This document shows, piece by piece, positions 4,196 through 36,641 of a stretch of 61,655 bases of DNA (within the stretch, counting starts at the first letter, position 1; each line of letters begins with the position of its first letter). This stretch comes from Chloroflexota bacterium (GTDB lineage Bacteria > Chloroflexota > Dehalococcoidia > JACPQF01). Below the pieces are notes generated by a model. It was not told the origin of the DNA. It did not search any database and was given only the letters and a program-made list of their open reading frames with translations. The stretch covers positions 1-61,655 of the forward strand of contig JACPQF010000089.1 in NCBI GenBank assembly GCA_016190625.1, given 5' to 3'. A program made the position numbers and the translations under genes.

Positions 4196-4756
4196 GTGGT
4201 AGCTCATCTGGTGAGATGGCAGTTCACGGTGGACGATTATCACCGCATGGCGCAGGCTGGTATCCTGGGCGAAGACGATCGCGTCGAGCTCATCGAAGGC
4301 GAGGTCGTAAAGATGACTCCTATCGGTCGCCGTCATGCCTCATGCGTCATTCGCACCAACGAAACCTTCGTGAAGGCGTTCAACGACGTCGCCGCGATTT
4401 CCGTCCAAAACCCCGTGGTGCTCGACCAATATACCGAGCCTCAGCCTGATTTCGCCCTTCTTCGCCGCCAGCCGGACTTCTATGCGTCGCGCCTTCCGAC
4501 CCCCGCGGACGTGTATTTGCTCGTGGAGATCAGCGACAAAACGGTCGAAGCAGACCGCCGGGTTAAGGTGCCGCTATACGCTAAGAGTCACGTCACCGAG
4601 GTATGGCTGGTAGATGTCGAGCAAGAGACTATCACCGTCTACCGCGATCCCTCTCCCGATGGTTATCGCACTGCTCGCGTGGCACGCCGAGGCGAACACA
4701 TTGCCCCATTGGCATTTTCGGATAGACCTATTGCGGTAAGCGATGTTCTCGGCTGA
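4196..4756 (+). CDS. Uma2 family endonuclease
   Basis: FTVDDYHRM..RVELIEG, EPQPD, LLVEISD..D..K..LYA; GGAGG RBS before GTG. Confidence 0.92.
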   Translation: MVAHLVRWQFTVDDYHRMAQAGILGEDDRVELIEGEVVKMTPIGRRHASCVIRTNETFVKAFNDVAAISVQNPVVLDQYTEPQPDFALLRRQPDFYASRLPTPADVYLLVEISDKTVEADRRVKVPLYAKSHVTEVWLVDVEQETITVYRDPSPDGYRTARVARRGEHIAPLAFSDRPIAVSDVLG

Positions 4757-32123: not shown

Positions 32124-33584
32124 ATGCGTAAACAGGCTCCGATCCTCGTCACCGGCGCCACGGGCTACGTGGGGGGCAGACTCGTGCCACGCCTCCTCGA
32201 TGCGGGGTACCGGGTGCGAGTTCTCGTGCGTGACCCCAGCCGCCTCCAGGGACGCCCCTGGGCCGGCCAGGTGGAGGTAGAACAGGCCGATGTCCTACAG
32301 CCTGAGACCCTTTCTGCCGCTCTCGCAGGCGTGTCCGCGGCCTATTACCTGGTCCATAGCATGGCCATCGCGGGAGATTTTCCCCAGCGCGATCTGATAG
32401 CCGCTCGCAATTTCGGCGCCGCGGCGAAAGCGGCCGGGGTAGAGCGGATTATCTACCTTGGCGGGCTGGGCGATTCGCAAACTACCCTATCGAAGCATCT
32501 GCGCTCCCGTCAGGAGACCGGGACGATCCTAAGGGAGGCCGGCGTTCCTGTCACCGAGTTCCGGGCTGGCATCATTATCGGCTCCGGCAGCGTGTCTTAC
32601 GAGATCATCCGTTATCTCACCGAGCGCCTACCGATCATCCTTGCCCCCGGCTGGGTGTTCACCCCGGCGCAGCCCATCGCCATTCGCGACGTGCTTGCTT
32701 ATCTGAAAGCTGCGTTGGAAGTGCCGGAGAGCACCGGGAGAACTCTGGAGATCGGTGGAGCGGGTGTGTTGTCCTACAAGGAAATGATCCTTGGCTATGC
32801 CCACGCGCGGAAGCTCTACAGGATCTTGATTCCCGTTCCCGCGCTCACGCCGAAACTCTCGGCGCGCCTGCTGCATGCCCTGACGCCGATCCCCGAAAAC
32901 ATCGCCTTGCCTCTCATCGAGGGACTGCGCAACGAGGTGCTCGTTCGCGATCATACCGCCCATCGGCTCTTCCCGAATATCGTACCGATTCATTATCTGA
33001 CCGCCGTGCAACTGGCTTTCATCCGTCAGGAGACCGGCAAGGTGGAGACGATTTGGAGCACGGCGTTGGCCACGAGCCAGGGCGATAAGCCGCCTGTCGC
33101 CTTCACCGATCGTGAGGGTATTAACCTGGAGAGCCGGCAGATGGTCGTCGCCGCCAGTCCGGCGGCGGTTTATCAGGTCTTCACCGGTCTCGGCGGCCAG
33201 CGCGGCTGGCTATATGCCGACTGGATGTGGCATTGGCGAGGCAGAATCGACAGAATGCTCGGGGGCGTGGGCTTCCGGCGAGGTCGGCGGCATCCCGACG
33301 AGATACAGGTAGGGGAGGCATTGGACTTCTGGCGAGTGGAGGCCGTAGAGCCTGGACGCCTGTTCCGCCTGCGCGCCGAGATGAGGGCGCCCGGCAGGGC
33401 CTGGTTGCAGTTCGAGGCGCAGGCACTTCAAGATGGCAAGACCTTGTTAACTCAGACCGCCTTCTTCTTCCCCAGAGGTCTAGCCGGGCCCCTCTATTGG
33501 TACGGTCTCTACCCCGTGCACAAGGTAATCTTCTCCGGACTCATCCGCTCGATCGCTCGCCGGGCCGAGGCCATCGAGGCATGA
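32124..33584 (+). CDS. Atypical SDR (YbjT-like) with DUF2867 domain
   Basis: TGATGYVGG, YYLVHSM, LDFWRVE, AEMRAPGRAWL; start 32118 or 32124, possibly leaderless. Confidence 0.9.
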   Translation: MRKQAPILVTGATGYVGGRLVPRLLDAGYRVRVLVRDPSRLQGRPWAGQVEVEQADVLQPETLSAALAGVSAAYYLVHSMAIAGDFPQRDLIAARNFGAAAKAAGVERIIYLGGLGDSQTTLSKHLRSRQETGTILREAGVPVTEFRAGIIIGSGSVSYEIIRYLTERLPIILAPGWVFTPAQPIAIRDVLAYLKAALEVPESTGRTLEIGGAGVLSYKEMILGYAHARKLYRILIPVPALTPKLSARLLHALTPIPENIALPLIEGLRNEVLVRDHTAHRLFPNIVPIHYLTAVQLAFIRQETGKVETIWSTALATSQGDKPPVAFTDREGINLESRQMVVAASPAAVYQVFTGLGGQRGWLYADWMWHWRGRIDRMLGGVGFRRGRRHPDEIQVGEALDFWRVEAVEPGRLFRLRAEMRAPGRAWLQFEAQALQDGKTLLTQTAFFFPRGLAGPLYWYGLYPVHKVIFSGLIRSIARRAEAIEA

Positions 33585-34549
33585 GAGCTATGGTTTTCGA
33601 CGGAGCCCTGCGATTGGCGGCAGATTACCCCCGGCCCTCACCGGGCCATAACGAGGCATCGATCAGGGTCGGGCTGGCGGGAATCTGCAACACGGATTTG
33701 GAAATCGTCAAAGGCTATATGGGTTTCAAGGGAGTGCTGGGGCACGAGTTCGTGGGAGTCGTAGAGGAGTGTCGAGACCCCGACTTGGTGGGCCAGCGCG
33801 TGGTCGGCGAGATCAACGTTGGCTGTGGCGCCTGCCCGTACTGCTCCCGGGGCCTATCCCGACATTGTCCCGACCGCTCCGTCCTCGGCATCCTCGGTCG
33901 TGATGGCGCTCTGGCCGAGTACGTAACGTTGCCCATCGAGAATCTGCACCCTGTTCCAAAATCGTTGCCTGACGAAGAAGCCGTCTTCGCCGAGCCCCTC
34001 GCCGCGGCTCTGGAGATTCGGGAGCAGGTGAACATCAGCCCATCCGATTCTGTCCTAGTCCTGGGCGACGGCAAGCTGGGCCTTCTCGTAGCGCAAGTTC
34101 TGGCGCCGCTAAGCCGGAAACTGAGGGTGGTAGGCAAGCACCGCAGCAGCCTCGCCATTCTCTCCCAGCGAGGAATCGAGACTTGTCTCGCCGGGGATTC
34201 TCCTCCGGAACGGGCAGACATAGTGGTAGATTGCACTGGCTCGCCATCCGGGCTCGAAGCGGCCATGCGCCTGACCAAGCCAAAGGGCACCATCGTCCTG
34301 AAGAGCACGGTGGCTACAGGCGCCAGCCTGAACCTCGCTCCCCTCGTGGTGGACGAGATCACTGTGGTCGGCTCCCGCTGCGGGCCTTTTCGCCCTGCTC
34401 TGGACGCGCTGGACAAGAAAACGGTCGGCGTCCGGCCCCTCATCGCCGGCATTTACCCGATCAGCGATGGCCTGCGAGCCTTCGAGCATGCCGCTCAACA
34501 TGGCACTCTTAAAGTGCTAATTAGCTTCCACGCGAATCTCACACAGTAG
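33581..34549 (+). CDS. Zinc-dependent MDR alcohol dehydrogenase-like protein
   Basis: GICNTD, GHEFVG, CGACPYC..C, GDGKLG; ATGA overlap with the upstream gene. Confidence 0.92.
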   Translation: MRAMVFDGALRLAADYPRPSPGHNEASIRVGLAGICNTDLEIVKGYMGFKGVLGHEFVGVVEECRDPDLVGQRVVGEINVGCGACPYCSRGLSRHCPDRSVLGILGRDGALAEYVTLPIENLHPVPKSLPDEEAVFAEPLAAALEIREQVNISPSDSVLVLGDGKLGLLVAQVLAPLSRKLRVVGKHRSSLAILSQRGIETCLAGDSPPERADIVVDCTGSPSGLEAAMRLTKPKGTIVLKSTVATGASLNLAPLVVDEITVVGSRCGPFRPALDALDKKTVGVRPLIAGIYPISDGLRAFEHAAQHGTLKVLISFHANLTQ

Positions 34550-34625: not shown

Positions 34626-34973
34626 TTACCTAGATGCCGCCACTGGATAACCTGCCGCCTCCCAAGCGTGGAATCCGCCTCGTAGCGCCTCGGCTCTGGC
34701 GTATCCCCTGTCGATTAAGAAGCGTGCCGCACGGGCACTGCTGCCTTCCTCCGGTCAGGTTCAGTAGGTTATGATCAGTTTATCGTGAGCAAGGTCACTA
34801 TAGCGTCGGGGGAATTCTGCCGCTGGCATGTGAATAGCGCCCTCGACGTGGGCCTCGTCGTAGGCCTCCTTGCTTCGGACGTCCACCAAGACTGCTTCGT
34901 TGCGGTCGTGCATCTGCTTGGCCTCGCTTACAGAGATGCGCGGCACTTCTTCGAGAGGCATTCTCTGCACCAT
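34626..34973 (-). CDS. Rhodanese-family selenoprotein with two UGA codons (UxU), 115 aa
   Basis: DVR..Y..AHVEGA; IITY-TGA-T-TGA-PEEGSSARAA...LRGGFHAWEAAGYPV; true stop TAA at 34626-34628. Confidence 0.85.
34719..34748 (-). promoter_or_regulatory. Candidate bacterial SECIS hairpin
   Basis: AGC-A-GTGCC-CGTGC-GGCAC-GCT; loop begins 21 nt after the second UGA with G at loop position 2. Confidence 0.6.
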
Positions 34974-35074
34974 TGACCGATCCTCCTTTCAAGTGGGGGC
35001 GAACGGCCATTTGCTCCTGCTTATCTTGATTGCGCGCAAGATCGATGCCGGGATGGTTCAGGCTGACGTTCGCC

Positions 35075-35136
35075 GTGGTTCAAACCGTAGGGACGAATCC
35101 TTTGGCGGAAGGATTCGTCCCTACGGTTTGAACCAC
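35075..35136. repeat. Perfect 28-bp-arm palindrome containing a GTAG REP
   Basis: gtggttcaaaccgtagggacgaatcctt-tggcgg-aaggattcgtccctacggtttgaaccac. Confidence 0.9.
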
Positions 35137-35268: not shown

Positions 35269-35682
35269 ATGCCGAGAATAGAGGAGAGAATTCACGTCGA
35301 CGCGCCTATCGATCAGGTGTACCGGTTCTGGACCAACTTCGAGAGTTTTCCTCGCTTCATGGAGAATGTGGACCAGGTCAAGATGACCGGGCCGAAGACG
35401 CTGCATTGGAAGGCCCATATTGCGGGGACGCCGGTGGAGTGGGACGCCGAGATCACCGAGCTGAAGCCGAGTGAGAAGGTTGCCTGGCGCTCAACCACAG
35501 GGACCGGCAATAGCGGTGAGGTAACGTTTGCCCGCGCTGACACGGGCACGGACGTGCATGTGATTCTGGAGTATACCCCACCGGCTGGCGCCGTCGGTGC
35601 GACGCTCGACCAATTCGCCCGGGCGACAGAGAGGAACGTGGAGGAGGACCTCCAGAATTTCAGGAGAATGGTTGAGCGATAA
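35269..35682 (+). CDS. SRPBCC (polyketide cyclase-like) protein
   Basis: VYRFWTNFESFPRFM, EWDAEITE, AWRS, DLQNFR. Confidence 0.92.
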   Translation: MPRIEERIHVDAPIDQVYRFWTNFESFPRFMENVDQVKMTGPKTLHWKAHIAGTPVEWDAEITELKPSEKVAWRSTTGTGNSGEVTFARADTGTDVHVILEYTPPAGAVGATLDQFARATERNVEEDLQNFRRMVER

Positions 35683-35696
35683 AGCGATCTCGCCCG

Positions 35697-36611
35697 CTAT
35701 CGTTGATCATGGGGCGAGGCAGCTCGCCTCGTGGCCTCCAATTCAGGCACAATTACCTTGAGAGCGCGAGGAGCCACCTGAAAGCGCATGGGGGTCTTGC
35801 CAATCACATCGCCGTCGGTCTGCACTATCAGAGGCTTTTCGGATTGCAAGGCCACCGAGCTGGCCCTGTAGGACTCGACGTCGGGAGAGCCGTGGTGGCG
35901 ACGGAGAGCGAGGGACAGCAGGTGGCGAACCTTGGTCATGGTCCCGCTTCCCTGAAAAATGAACACTTCGAAGAGGCCGTCATCGGGCTCGGCCTGGCGC
36001 GAAAGCTCGAAGATGGCGTAGCGCTTGATATTCGACACGACGACGAGCAGAACCCTGCGGCTCAGCTTCTTACCGTCCAAAACCACTTCCGCGCGCGTTC
36101 CCTCGAACCGGAACAGAGTGACCAGAGCGGAGACGGCGAAGGCGGGAATGCCCCAGCGGCGTTTGGCCTCCGGCTTGACGTTGAGCAGGACCTGGGCGTC
36201 AAAGCCGGCGCCAGCCCAGAGCAGAAAGCAGCGGTCCTCGGACATGCCCACGTCGAGATACCGGTTTTGACCAGCCACGATGGACTTCGCCGCCTCGACC
36301 GGGTCCAGGGGGATGCCCATTTCCCGGGCGAACACGTTGGCAGTGCCGGTAGGGATGACTCCTAGGGCGACCTCCGTCCCCGGCAGTGCCTGAATTACCT
36401 CGTTGATCGTTCCGTCGCCGCCGCAGGCGACCACCAACTGGCAACCCTCCGCCACGGCCAGGCGCGCCAGCTCGGTGCCCCTATGCCCGCCATCGGTATG
36501 AAAGACGGACACGTCCCAGGCGGGTGCCCGGAGAAAGCCAATGGCCCTGTCTATGTCGGGCCGTCGCGACGCCTGGCCCGCCGTCGGGTTGACTATAACG
36601 CAGACCTTCAT
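35697..36611 (-). CDS. Diacylglycerol/lipid kinase family protein
   Basis: IVNPTAG, GGDGTINE, PTGTANVFA, DDG, QTDGD. Confidence 0.93.
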   Translation of the reverse strand: MKVCVIVNPTAGQASRRPDIDRAIGFLRAPAWDVSVFHTDGGHRGTELARLAVAEGCQLVVACGGDGTINEVIQALPGTEVALGVIPTGTANVFAREMGIPLDPVEAAKSIVAGQNRYLDVGMSEDRCFLLWAGAGFDAQVLLNVKPEAKRRWGIPAFAVSALVTLFRFEGTRAEVVLDGKKLSRRVLLVVVSNIKRYAIFELSRQAEPDDGLFEVFIFQGSGTMTKVRHLLSLALRRHHGSPDVESYRASSVALQSEKPLIVQTDGDVIGKTPMRFQVAPRALKVIVPELEATRRAASPHDQR

Positions 36612-36641
36612 GCTGCGACCTCGGACCATCGCCCTCTCTTA

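What the first reader, a model, noticed from the sequence alone, without database searches (positions are those of the whole stretch)
34626..34973. Hidden rhodanese with two selenocysteines (U-T-U active site)
Seen: the 70-aa ORF stops at TGA exactly where the rhodanese catalytic Cys belongs (IITY*). A second TGA follows two codons later. The frame then continues PEEGSSARAA...LRGGFHAWEAAGYPV to TAA, which completes the fold. One SECIS-like hairpin has its loop 27 and 21 nt downstream of the two UGAs. Known: bacterial Sec insertion uses a hairpin just 3' of UGA, and this rhodanese subtype has a YCxCP.E motif. Inference: a di-Sec selenium/sulfur carrier in which one SECIS may serve two UGAs.
Basis: partly seen in the sequence, partly recalled or inferred. 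Interest (0 to 1): 0.9.

Follow-up and report, generated by a model that had tools for sequence, protein, structure and literature searches.

The report
Rhodanese gene with two selenocysteine codons
A small enzyme gene that looks cut short is most likely read through two stop-like codons as the rare amino acid selenocysteine; this two-selenium variant was first noted in 2007, so it is real but not new.

Summary
On the minus strand, 34973..34626 encodes a 115-aa single-domain rhodanese. Codons 71 and 73 are TGA (Y-U-T-U-P), and the frame ends at TAA.

The genome has tRNA-Sec, selA, selB and a Sec-type selD, and TGA is otherwise an ordinary stop. The same two TGAs recur in 8 further loci among 401 class genomes and in 75 named genomes of at least 6 phyla. 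The sequence after the TGAs is better conserved than the sequence before them.

One 5-bp hairpin with loop CGUGC lies 27 nt after the first UGA and 21 nt after the second. It is the only conserved structure, shows wobble-position covariation, and is identical in place in the much commoner C-x-U relatives. In 401 phylum genomes this hairpin never accompanies a Cys codon at position 73 (0 of 48 matches). So it is a SECIS tied to UGA-73, with UGA-71 riding on it.

The U-x-U rhodanese form was already reported in 2007 (PMC1976440) in the Olavius Delta-1 symbiont, and my scan recovers a record titled as that symbiont. The verdict is a genuine new member of a known kind. Sec insertion, shared use of the SECIS and the protein's chemistry remain untested.

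The parts
34626..34973 (-). Full coding sequence of the di-Sec rhodanese: 115 codons plus TAA stop at 34626-34628, ATG at 34973-34971
   Evidence: Read-through translation. Pfam PF00581 matched full length. AlphaFold2 model with pLDDT 95.6. Foldseek TM 0.83 to a rhodanese domain.
34761..34763 (-). First in-frame UGA, codon 71 (Sec71)
   Evidence: It is Cys in C-x-U and C-x-C homologues and TGA in 8 other class loci.
34755..34757 (-). Second in-frame UGA, codon 73 (Sec73). This is the position that is Sec in the known C-x-U family.
   Evidence: It is TGA in 48 of 48 hairpin-bearing matches in 401 phylum genomes.
34717..34747 (-). SECIS-like hairpin in the window, 31 nt and -12.0 kcal/mol. The conserved apical helix is 34738-34734 with 34728-34724; the loop CGUGC is 34733-34729. 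It lies inside the codons for S-S-A-R-A-A-R.
   Evidence: Folds. RNAalifold finds this as the only consensus helix in 26 loci. 96.2% of cells are paired, a value reached by 0 of 500 shuffles, with wobble covariation at pair 27-39.
34982..34986 (-). Shine-Dalgarno-like GGAGG, 8 nt before the ATG
   Evidence: Read directly.

Best explanation
This is a functional selenoprotein gene: a cytoplasmic, single-domain rhodanese whose active-site motif is Sec71-Thr72-Sec73. Translation starts at ATG 34973. Both UGAs are decoded as selenocysteine by SelB with Sec-tRNA(Sec). Decoding is directed by one hairpin in the coding sequence, encoded by the S-A-R-A-A codons. Its loop lies 27 nt after UGA-71 and 21 nt after UGA-73. 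The hairpin is the ancestral SECIS of the C-x-U rhodanese selenoprotein family and is placed for UGA-73. A one-base change, TGY to TGA, at the Cys two codons upstream then falls within reach of the same element. This has happened, or been reversed, several times. The ribosome must therefore recruit a second SelB complex to the same hairpin two codons later (inferred). The protein has a rhodanese fold. In the model the two Sec residues and Thr72 form the three-residue turn between strand 66-70 and helix 74-88, next to the invariant Glu76. The likely chemistry is chalcogen (S/Se) transfer or redox cycling through a Se-S or Se-Se intermediate between the two vicinal Sec residues (inferred, not tested). 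Shown here: gene structure, machinery, conservation, hairpin covariation. Inferred: actual Sec insertion at both codons, shared SECIS use, chemistry.
For: Machinery in the same genome: tRNA-Sec at 69.8 bits with anticodon TCA; selB at 327 bits, or 348 with its neighbours in the frame (cut-off 242); selA at 563 bits; selD at 410 bits with its own in-frame TGA.

TGA is a normal stop here: 687 of 1821 long frames end in it.

Class survey (401 genomes; tblastn on 50 loci): 9 U-x-U loci in 8 genomes including the window's own, 18 C-x-U loci and 2 C-x-C loci, all in the same columns. Together they form one clade with 98/96 support against classical rhodaneses. Well-supported branches force at least 3 changes of the U-x-U state.

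Named genomes: 75 of the 80 listed matches to a U-x-U-plus-hairpin pattern are rhodanese homologues. They comprise Chloroflexota 49, Nitrospirota 11, Planctomycetota 7 and others 8.

Conservation after the TGAs.

Hairpin: it is the only consensus helix. Pair 27-39 (Ser wobble with Ala wobble) reads CG 17, UA 6, GC 1, UG 1, unpaired 1. Pair 30-36 reads CG 24, UA 2. Controls with the partner slid by 1-3 columns give 21-62% paired against 96%.

The hairpin meets all four constraints of the published bSECIS model for both UGAs: 3-9 nt loop, 4-16 bp stem, G in the first two loop positions, 16-37 nt spacing, MFE at or below -7.5 kcal/mol (model text seen; values).

In 401 phylum genomes a pattern allowing Cys or TGA at both positions gave 48 matches: 41 C-x-U, 7 U-x-U, 0 U-x-C and 0 C-x-C. 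The reversed-pattern control gave 0.
Against: No direct evidence of selenium incorporation or of expression. Folding energy alone is unremarkable: z-scores are 0.15, -1.07 and -1.82, so the SECIS call rests on comparison. The conserved helix has only 5 bp, and most of its letters are also fixed by the conserved S-A-R-A-A peptide. Only the wobble pairs are independent of the protein. The 27-nt spacing of UGA-71 is longer than the spacings I predict for two other Sec genes of this genome (about 14 nt in selD and 18 nt in a DsbA-like gene; single-sequence folds). In E. coli, reading of fdhF is sensitive to this spacing (recalled, not checked here). The two Cys-form loci still keep 3-4 of the 5 pairs (read by eye; n = 2 and closely related). 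The protein scores 92.3 bits on NF041203, below its 115-bit cut-off. The genome is a 64.9%-complete metagenome bin.
Confidence: 0.85

Rival explanations
1. Only UGA-73 is a true SECIS-directed Sec codon. UGA-71 lies too far from the hairpin. It is passed inefficiently, by near-cognate read-through or low-efficiency SelB action, or it acts as a selenium-dependent brake so that most ribosomes stop after 70 residues.
For: The hairpin sits at the same place as in C-x-U genes, so it is tuned to position 73. The spacing for UGA-71 (27 nt) is the longest of the four Sec codons I looked at in this genome. U-x-U is the minority form: 3 of 80 in the metagenome sample and 7 of 48 in the phylum sample.
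Against: 27 nt is inside the 16-37 nt range of the published bSECIS model. The first TGA is kept in 75 named genomes of several phyla and aligns with Cys. A costly leaky stop would not be expected to persist and recur at least 3 times. The hairpin stems of U-x-U and C-x-U genes do not differ.
Confidence: 0.1
2. The gene is a pseudogene or a truncated 70-aa ORF, and the downstream frame is not translated.
For: By table 11 the ORF stops at codon 71. There is no expression data.
Against: Downstream identity to homologues is higher than upstream (49% against 32%; downstream at least as high in 43 of 44). Median dN/dS downstream is 0.19, and it is below 0.5 in 33 of 38 usable pairs. The same two TGAs and no other lesions occur in dozens of genomes. 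The full fold is predicted only with the downstream part.
Confidence: 0.02
3. TGA is reassigned in this organism (for example to Trp or Gly), or the TGAs are assembly errors.
For: None beyond the two in-frame TGAs.
Against: 687 of 1821 long frames end in TGA. The full Sec machinery is present. Homologues have Cys in these columns. Logan contigs of two groundwater runs cover both TGAs with no listed difference, although they come from the same study and possibly the source sample.
Confidence: 0.01
4. Two separate SECIS elements exist: a second, unrecognised structure serves UGA-71.
For: Bacterial SECIS elements are diverse and some do not fit the consensus model. In the small class sample, U-x-U genes seemed to have longer stems.
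Against: RNAalifold on the 9 U-x-U and on the 17 C-x-U loci separately gives the same single helix and nothing else in the 63 columns. The longer-stem hint vanished in larger samples: 53% of 74 U-x-U and 55% of 75 C-x-U stems have more than 5 pairs.
Confidence: 0.03

Closest known systems
U-x-U form of the 'rhodanese-related sulfurtransferase' selenoprotein family, reported in the metagenome of Olavius algarvensis symbionts (PMC1976440, 2007; passage seen)
   Same: Rhodanese domain with two Sec residues separated by one residue. That paper describes it as a second Sec evolved in a known selenoprotein. My pattern scan recovers a locus (L093) from a record titled 'Olavius sp. associated proteobacterium Delta 1'. 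It has the Y-U-T-U motif and the same hairpin. It scores 133.8 bits on NF041203.
   Different: The window's protein is only about 34% identical to L093. Its closest named relatives are Chloroflexota (50-56% identity). It falls below the NF041203 cut-off. The 2007 passage I saw does not discuss how the SECIS serves two UGAs. I did not see its Figure 3A, because figures are not held.
NCBIfam NF041203 rhodanese_LYCAU, 'rhodanese-related (seleno)protein'. [quoted passage not shown]
   Same: It is the best-scoring NCBIfam family for the window's protein and for 10 of 10 relatives tested. The window's protein sits in the same clade, has Sec at the same second position, and has the same hairpin at the same distance.
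   Different: The first position is Sec instead of Cys. The score is 92.3 bits against a cut-off of 115. The review's table lists one Sec for this form, and the string 'UxU' does not occur in its main text.
TsoB, rhodanese/DsbD fusion-like selenoprotein (NF045694), motif UxxxxU with 2 Sec (table passage)
   Same: A rhodanese-type domain with two Sec residues close together.
   Different: The match is weak (31.7 bits against a cut-off of 805). The spacing of the Sec residues differs, and TsoB is a large fusion protein with a 572-position profile.
Classical single-domain thiosulfate sulfurtransferases GlpE and PspE
   Same: Same fold: Foldseek TM 0.79 to 1gmx. GlpE NCBIfam model 61.5 bits, below its cut-off of 102.
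   Different: The active-site stretch is U-T-U-P-E-E-G-S-S. It is acidic and two residues longer than the classical C-x-x-G-x-R-S in the BLAST alignments. No Arg follows the catalytic position. The register is ambiguous: BLAST puts the classical Cys on residue 71 with a 2-residue gap, while HMMER's gapless alignments to 1yt8 and 6mxv put it on residue 72.
Bacterial SECIS consensus model (bSECIS), as summarised in PMC13188914, section 5 and the Fig. 2 legend
   Same: 5-nt loop with G in second place followed by U. The stem has 5 bp, or 12 with the window's own extension. Spacings are 21 and 27 nt. MFE is -12.0 kcal/mol.
   Different: One element faces two UGA codons. The conserved part of the stem is near the minimum length.

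Membership tests
Rhodanese homology domain (Pfam PF00581) | Profile match above the gathering score over the whole domain | tested here: met
   66.8 bits against 22.2; residues 15-107 on profile positions 2-102 of 102. This holds only for the read-through product.
Rhodanese homology domain (Pfam PF00581) | Alpha/beta rhodanese fold with the active-site residue at the end of the central strand, before a helix | tested here: met
   AlphaFold2 pLDDT 95.6, strand 66-70, turn 71-73, helix 74-88. Foldseek TM 0.83 to 3tp9_A and 0.79 to GlpE 1gmx. This is a model, not a solved structure.
NF041203 rhodanese_LYCAU (C-x-U rhodanese selenoprotein, 'form 3') | Score at or above the curated cut-off of 115 bits | tested here: not met
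   92.3 bits. Of 10 relatives tested, only 2 pass: L093 at 133.8 and L054 at 117.3.
NF041203 rhodanese_LYCAU (C-x-U rhodanese selenoprotein, 'form 3') | Sec at the second position of the C-x-U motif | tested here: met
   TGA at codon 73 lies in the same column as the TGA of 18 C-x-U loci.
NF041203 rhodanese_LYCAU (C-x-U rhodanese selenoprotein, 'form 3') | Cys at the first position of the motif | tested here: not met
   Codon 71 is TGA.
NF041203 rhodanese_LYCAU (C-x-U rhodanese selenoprotein, 'form 3') | Shared descent with C-x-U members | tested here: met
   The 29 C-x-U, U-x-U and C-x-C rows form one clade against 5 classical rhodaneses, support 98/96.
U-x-U rhodanese-related sulfurtransferase (PMC1976440) | Rhodanese domain with a Sec-x-Sec motif | tested here: met
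   Y-U-T-U-P. It is homologous (E 2.8e-17) to L093, whose record is titled as the Olavius Delta-1 symbiont and which carries the same motif and hairpin.
Bacterial SelB/SECIS-dependent selenoprotein gene | In-frame UGA aligned with Cys in homologues | tested here: met
   Both columns are Cys in L025 and L060. The first column is Cys in 18 C-x-U loci.
Bacterial SelB/SECIS-dependent selenoprotein gene | Hairpin fitting the bSECIS model: 3-9 nt loop, 4-16 bp stem, G in the first two loop positions, 16-37 nt from the UGA, MFE at or below -7.5 kcal/mol | tested here: met
   Loop CGUGC, 5 conserved bp (12 in the window), spacings of 21 and 27 nt, -12.0 kcal/mol. Model text. Covariation.
Bacterial SelB/SECIS-dependent selenoprotein gene | selA, selB, selC and selD present in the genome | tested here: met
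   All four are above the curated cut-offs.
Bacterial SelB/SECIS-dependent selenoprotein gene | Selenium demonstrably incorporated at the UGA positions | not testable with these tools
   This needs 75Se labelling or mass spectrometry.
Classical thiosulfate sulfurtransferase (GlpE/PspE type) | Six-residue active-site loop C-x-x-x-x-R followed by S/T, with basic residues that hold the anion | tested here: not met
   The stretch is U-T-U-P-E-E-G-S-S, with no Arg until residue 81, and is two residues longer in BLAST alignments. The GlpE model scores 61.5 bits against a cut-off of 102. The loop definition is recalled, not taken from a call.

The most novel reading that the evidence does not exclude
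A single bacterial SECIS hairpin directs two SelB-dependent selenocysteine insertions at UGA codons only 6 nt apart, at spacings of 27 and then 21 nt. If so, the element is re-used by a second SelB complex within two elongation cycles, and its working distance is tolerant by at least two codons. This would make any redox Cys within reach of an existing SECIS one point mutation away from Sec. That would explain the repeated Cys/Sec switching at position 71, and why Sec-71 was never seen without Sec-73 (0 U-x-C among 48 matches and among 27 Sec loci). I found no paper that tests this for bacteria.
Probability: 0.6. Interest if true: 0.5.

Novelty: new member of a known kind. Interest (0 to 1): 0.35.

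Why it matters
For annotation, gene callers will report a 70-aa fragment here. The real product is a 115-aa selenoprotein, and the same mis-call affects dozens of Chloroflexota, Nitrospirota and Planctomycetota genomes.

For biology, the U-x-U form has been known from sequence since 2007. It is missing from the table of the 2026 review that I read, and in the papers I saw it has no experimental follow-up.

This family offers natural matched sets: C-x-C, C-x-U and U-x-U forms, the latter two with one and the same hairpin. These sets could be used to measure how far a bacterial SECIS reaches and whether it can act twice in a row. That question also matters for engineering proteins with several selenocysteines.

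Tried and rejected
Thermodynamics as evidence for the hairpin. The z-scores were 0.15 (77 nt), -1.07 (31 nt) and -1.82 (15 nt). These are not significant, so I dropped this argument in favour of covariation.

Longer SECIS stems in U-x-U genes. In the class sample, 8 of 9 U-x-U but only 3 of 17 C-x-U hairpins extended beyond 5 pairs. In larger samples the fractions were 53% of 74 U-x-U (genome contigs) and 55% of 75 C-x-U (metagenome). The idea is rejected. The two sets come from different collections.

De novo scan of the genome for further selenoprotein genes by codon-usage scoring. It gave 183 candidates, nearly all antisense or out-of-frame artefacts. Only a DsbA-like U-P-F-C gene on C4 looked real. 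The three window candidates that I translated (of the four listed for C61) were artefacts. The scan could not have found the rhodanese itself, because its TGAs are too close together.

Conserved gene neighbourhood. Across 76 loci, the commonest neighbour cluster occurs in 12 loci, all from related lineages. The window's neighbours recur in at most 3 loci. No functional partner could be inferred.

Solved structures. Only generic rhodanese domains were found. I did not check each hit for a C-x-C motif.

Expression. No RNA holder was listed.

Literature on one bacterial SECIS serving two UGAs, or on spacing. Nothing relevant was found. The E. coli fdhF spacing data are recalled only. Supplements of papers were closed and may hold family alignments that bear on the U-x-U form. 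Figures, including Fig. 3A of PMC1976440, are not held.

Eight further '1 TGA' rows were not fetched or examined: G072:C4, G394:C1, G072:C8, G142:C278, G108:C4, G205:C5, G334:C37 and G159:C59. The 48 matches were classified from the printed letters only. They were not translated or checked for rhodanese homology, and at least one U-x-U match (G722) may be a chance match.

The dN/dS pairs are not independent, and the first 10 or so codons were partly fixed by the search pattern.

Full report
WHAT IS THERE. On the minus strand an ORF starts at ATG 34973, with GGAGG 8 nt upstream. It runs 70 codons to TGA (34763-34761). Then come ACC, a second TGA (34757-34755) and 42 more open codons to TAA at 34628-34626. 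Read through with TGA = U, the product is 115 aa with the motif I-I-T-Y-U-T-U-P-E-E-G-S-S-A-R-A-A. It matches Pfam Rhodanese over the entire profile: 66.8 bits against a cut-off of 22.2, positions 2-102 of 102. An AlphaFold2 model built on 45 aligned relatives has mean pLDDT 95.6. It shows strand 66-70, a three-residue turn 71-73 holding both Sec residues, and helix 74-88. Foldseek places it among rhodanese domains, with TM 0.83 to 3tp9_A and 0.79 to GlpE 1gmx.

IS IT A SELENOPROTEIN GENE? The genome is a bin of 160 contigs, 3.18 Mb, 60.5% G+C and 64.9% complete. It encodes the following:
- tRNA-Sec: 69.8 bits against a cut-off of 47, anticodon TCA.
- selB: 327 bits, or 348 with its C-terminal piece in the same frame, against a cut-off of 242.
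- selA: 563 bits.
- selD: 410 bits, itself carrying an in-frame TGA in G-A-G-U-A-C-K.

TGA is an ordinary stop here. Of 1821 stop-to-stop frames of at least 300 codons, 687 end in TGA, 820 in TAG and 314 in TAA. Reassignment of the codon is therefore excluded.

RELATIVES. I searched 401 genomes of the same class, the window's own included, with the read-through protein. An earlier search covered 41 genomes. I then ran tblastn on the 50 loci held. This gave three forms, all in the same columns:
- 9 loci with TGA at both positions, in 8 genomes. They are the window, L019, L047, L022 and L042 from one genome, L048, L057 (U-S-U), L056 and L023.
- 18 loci with Cys-x-TGA.
- 2 loci with Cys-x-Cys (YCDCPNEE).

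Eight further single-TGA rows were not fetched. In a maximum-likelihood tree of 34 rows, the 29 family members form one clade against 5 classical rhodaneses (98/96). The U-x-U rows are scattered, and well-supported branches alone force at least 3 changes of that state. One example is the pair L040 (C-T-U) and L042 (U-T-U) from one genome. Cys and Sec at position 71 have therefore interchanged repeatedly.

A DNA pattern for U-x-U plus the hairpin, run over one genome for each of 185,579 species, gave 90 stretches. By my own arithmetic about 4 are expected by chance. Of the 80 listed, 75 are rhodanese homologues of the window's protein: Chloroflexota 49, Nitrospirota 11, Planctomycetota 7, Thermodesulfobacteriota 2, Myxococcota 1, Armatimonadota 1, Pseudomonadota 1 and unassigned 3. 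The other 5 are not homologues. The closest named relatives are Chloroflexota bins at 50-56% identity, so the window probably comes from that phylum. Runs holding the stretch are groundwater metagenomes from one study. Their contigs reproduce both TGAs, but they may not be independent of the assembly.

IS THE PART AFTER THE TGAs TRANSLATED? Across 44 aligned homologues, median identity to the window's protein is 32% before residue 71 and 49% after residue 73. Downstream is at least as high as upstream in 43 of 44. Among 73 U-x-U genes, 43 pairs were 70-97% identical in the 114 nt after the second TGA, and 38 of these had a usable dS. Median dN/dS was 0.19, it was below 0.5 in 33 of 38, and the maximum was 0.99. 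The pairs are not independent, and the search pattern fixes part of this stretch. The pseudogene reading is not tenable.

THE SECIS. The 26 distinct Sec-containing class loci align without gaps over 63 nt from codon 71. RNAalifold predicts exactly one helix, columns 26-30 with 36-40, with a 5-nt loop that is usually CGUGC. This helix has 96.2% of its 130 cells paired, a value reached by 0 of 500 shuffles. Sliding the 3' partner by 1-3 columns drops pairing to 21-62%.

Most of these letters are also constrained by the S-A-R-A-A peptide. The telling pairs are the ones at wobble positions:
- Column 27 (third base of Ser) pairs with column 39 (third base of Ala). It reads C-G 17, U-A 6, G-C 1, U-G 1, unpaired 1.
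- Columns 30 and 36 read C-G 24, U-A 2.

In the window the stem extends to 12 pairs with two bulges (34747-34717, -12.0 kcal/mol). The folding z-scores are unremarkable. The element satisfies the published bacterial SECIS model for both UGAs. That model requires a 3-9 nt loop, a 4-16 bp stem, a G in the first two loop positions, 16-37 nt between the UGA and the loop, and an MFE at or below -7.5 kcal/mol (PMC13188914, passages seen).

ONE HAIRPIN, TWO UGAs. U-x-U and C-x-U loci folded separately give the same single helix and nothing else. A hint that U-x-U stems are longer did not survive larger samples. A pattern that allowed Cys or TGA at both positions, run over 401 genomes of the phylum, matched 48 places in 42 genomes. 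The reversed-pattern control gave 0. The matches were 41 C-x-U, 7 U-x-U (the window included; not each checked by translation), 0 U-x-C and 0 C-x-C.

The hairpin is thus tied to the UGA at position 73, and Sec at position 71 occurs only together with it. The simplest reading is that the SECIS evolved for UGA-73. A TGY-to-TGA change two codons upstream then lands within its reach. The ribosome would use the same element twice, at 27 nt and then at 21 nt. That last step is inferred.

Two other Sec genes of this genome have shorter predicted spacings: about 14 nt in selD and 18 nt in a DsbA-like U-P-F-C gene on contig C4 (single-sequence folds). UGA-71 is therefore the outlier. A rival reading in which it is passed inefficiently keeps about 10% of my belief.

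FUNCTION. No conserved gene neighbours were found across 76 loci. The window's gene stands alone between a convergent zinc-type alcohol dehydrogenase-like ORF and a divergent ORF. Invariant residues in the 45-sequence alignment are D31, the two Cys/Sec positions, E76, S79 and A80. The active-site stretch is acidic and, in BLAST alignments, two residues longer than the classical C-x-x-G-x-R-S. The register against classical rhodaneses is ambiguous. I therefore do not file it with thiosulfate sulfurtransferases of the GlpE type. My best guess is a chalcogen-transfer or redox protein that cycles through a Se-S or Se-Se bond between the vicinal Sec residues. This is inference only.

WHAT IS KNOWN. 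A full-text search for 'UxU' with 'selenocysteine' found three papers. [quoted passage not shown] My scan recovers a record titled as that symbiont (L093). L093 passes the NCBIfam model NF041203 at 133.8 bits.

The 2026 review PMC13188914 lists five rhodanese selenoprotein forms. Form 3 is NF041203, with motif CxU and one Sec. The string UxU does not occur in its main text (passages seen). The window's protein has NF041203 as its best family but scores 92.3 bits against a cut-off of 115. Only 2 of 10 relatives tested pass that cut-off. The finding is therefore a new, divergent member of a known kind.

- the breadth of the U-x-U form, mainly in Chloroflexota, Nitrospirota and Planctomycetota;
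- its repeated origin or loss;
- wobble covariation of the hairpin;
- the hairpin's strict link to UGA-73;
- the absence of U-x-C.

I found no paper that tests whether one bacterial SECIS can serve two UGAs. The E. coli spacing experiments are recalled, not read here.

VERDICT. Interest is 0.35. The open and testable question is the double use of one SECIS.

Noticed in passing
window 35075-35136: A perfect 28-bp inverted repeat (35075-35102 with 35109-35136, 6-nt spacer). It lies in the 295-nt gap between the rhodanese gene and the divergent ORF that starts at 35269. Because both genes point away from it, it is not a terminator for either. It is single-copy in the incomplete genome. A contig of run X2 carries 35085-35125 with different flanks, so it may be a mobile or repeated element, or an operator.
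   Followed up: partly
G000:C129:7030-7956 (L015): The genome's selD is itself a selenoprotein gene. It has an in-frame TGA in S-H-G-A-G-U-A-C-K-L, with a hairpin beginning at the UGA.
   Followed up: partly
G000:C4, TGA at 4653-4655 (minus strand): A DsbA-like ORF with a U-P-F-C motif and a 10-bp hairpin whose loop starts 18 nt after the UGA. It is a probable further selenoprotein of this genome. It was not checked against a family library.
   Followed up: partly
L045:441-743 and L046:526-795: Two rhodanese homologues in class relatives carry a single TGA five residues after the conserved Cys (Y-C-H-D-A-L-U-D and Y-C-W-D-N-Q-U-D). This is a different Sec position from the C-x-U family.
   Followed up: no
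L022, L048, L049, L057, L058, L041 (N-termini); L066 and L043; L038, L061, L024 (C-termini): By eye, several family members have lipoprotein-like signal sequences ending in Cys. Two are fused behind a long hydrophobic, transporter-like region (528 and 269 aa). Three end in a C-x-x-C...H tail. The domain is therefore used in cytoplasmic, exported and membrane-tethered contexts. No Pfam or signal-peptide test was run.
   Followed up: no
window 33227-34549 (+) and 35697-36629 (-): The neighbouring ORFs look, by eye, like a zinc-dependent alcohol dehydrogenase and a diacylglycerol/lipid kinase-type protein. Homologues of each lie near U-x-U genes in only 3 of 76 loci, so no functional link is suggested.
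   Followed up: partly
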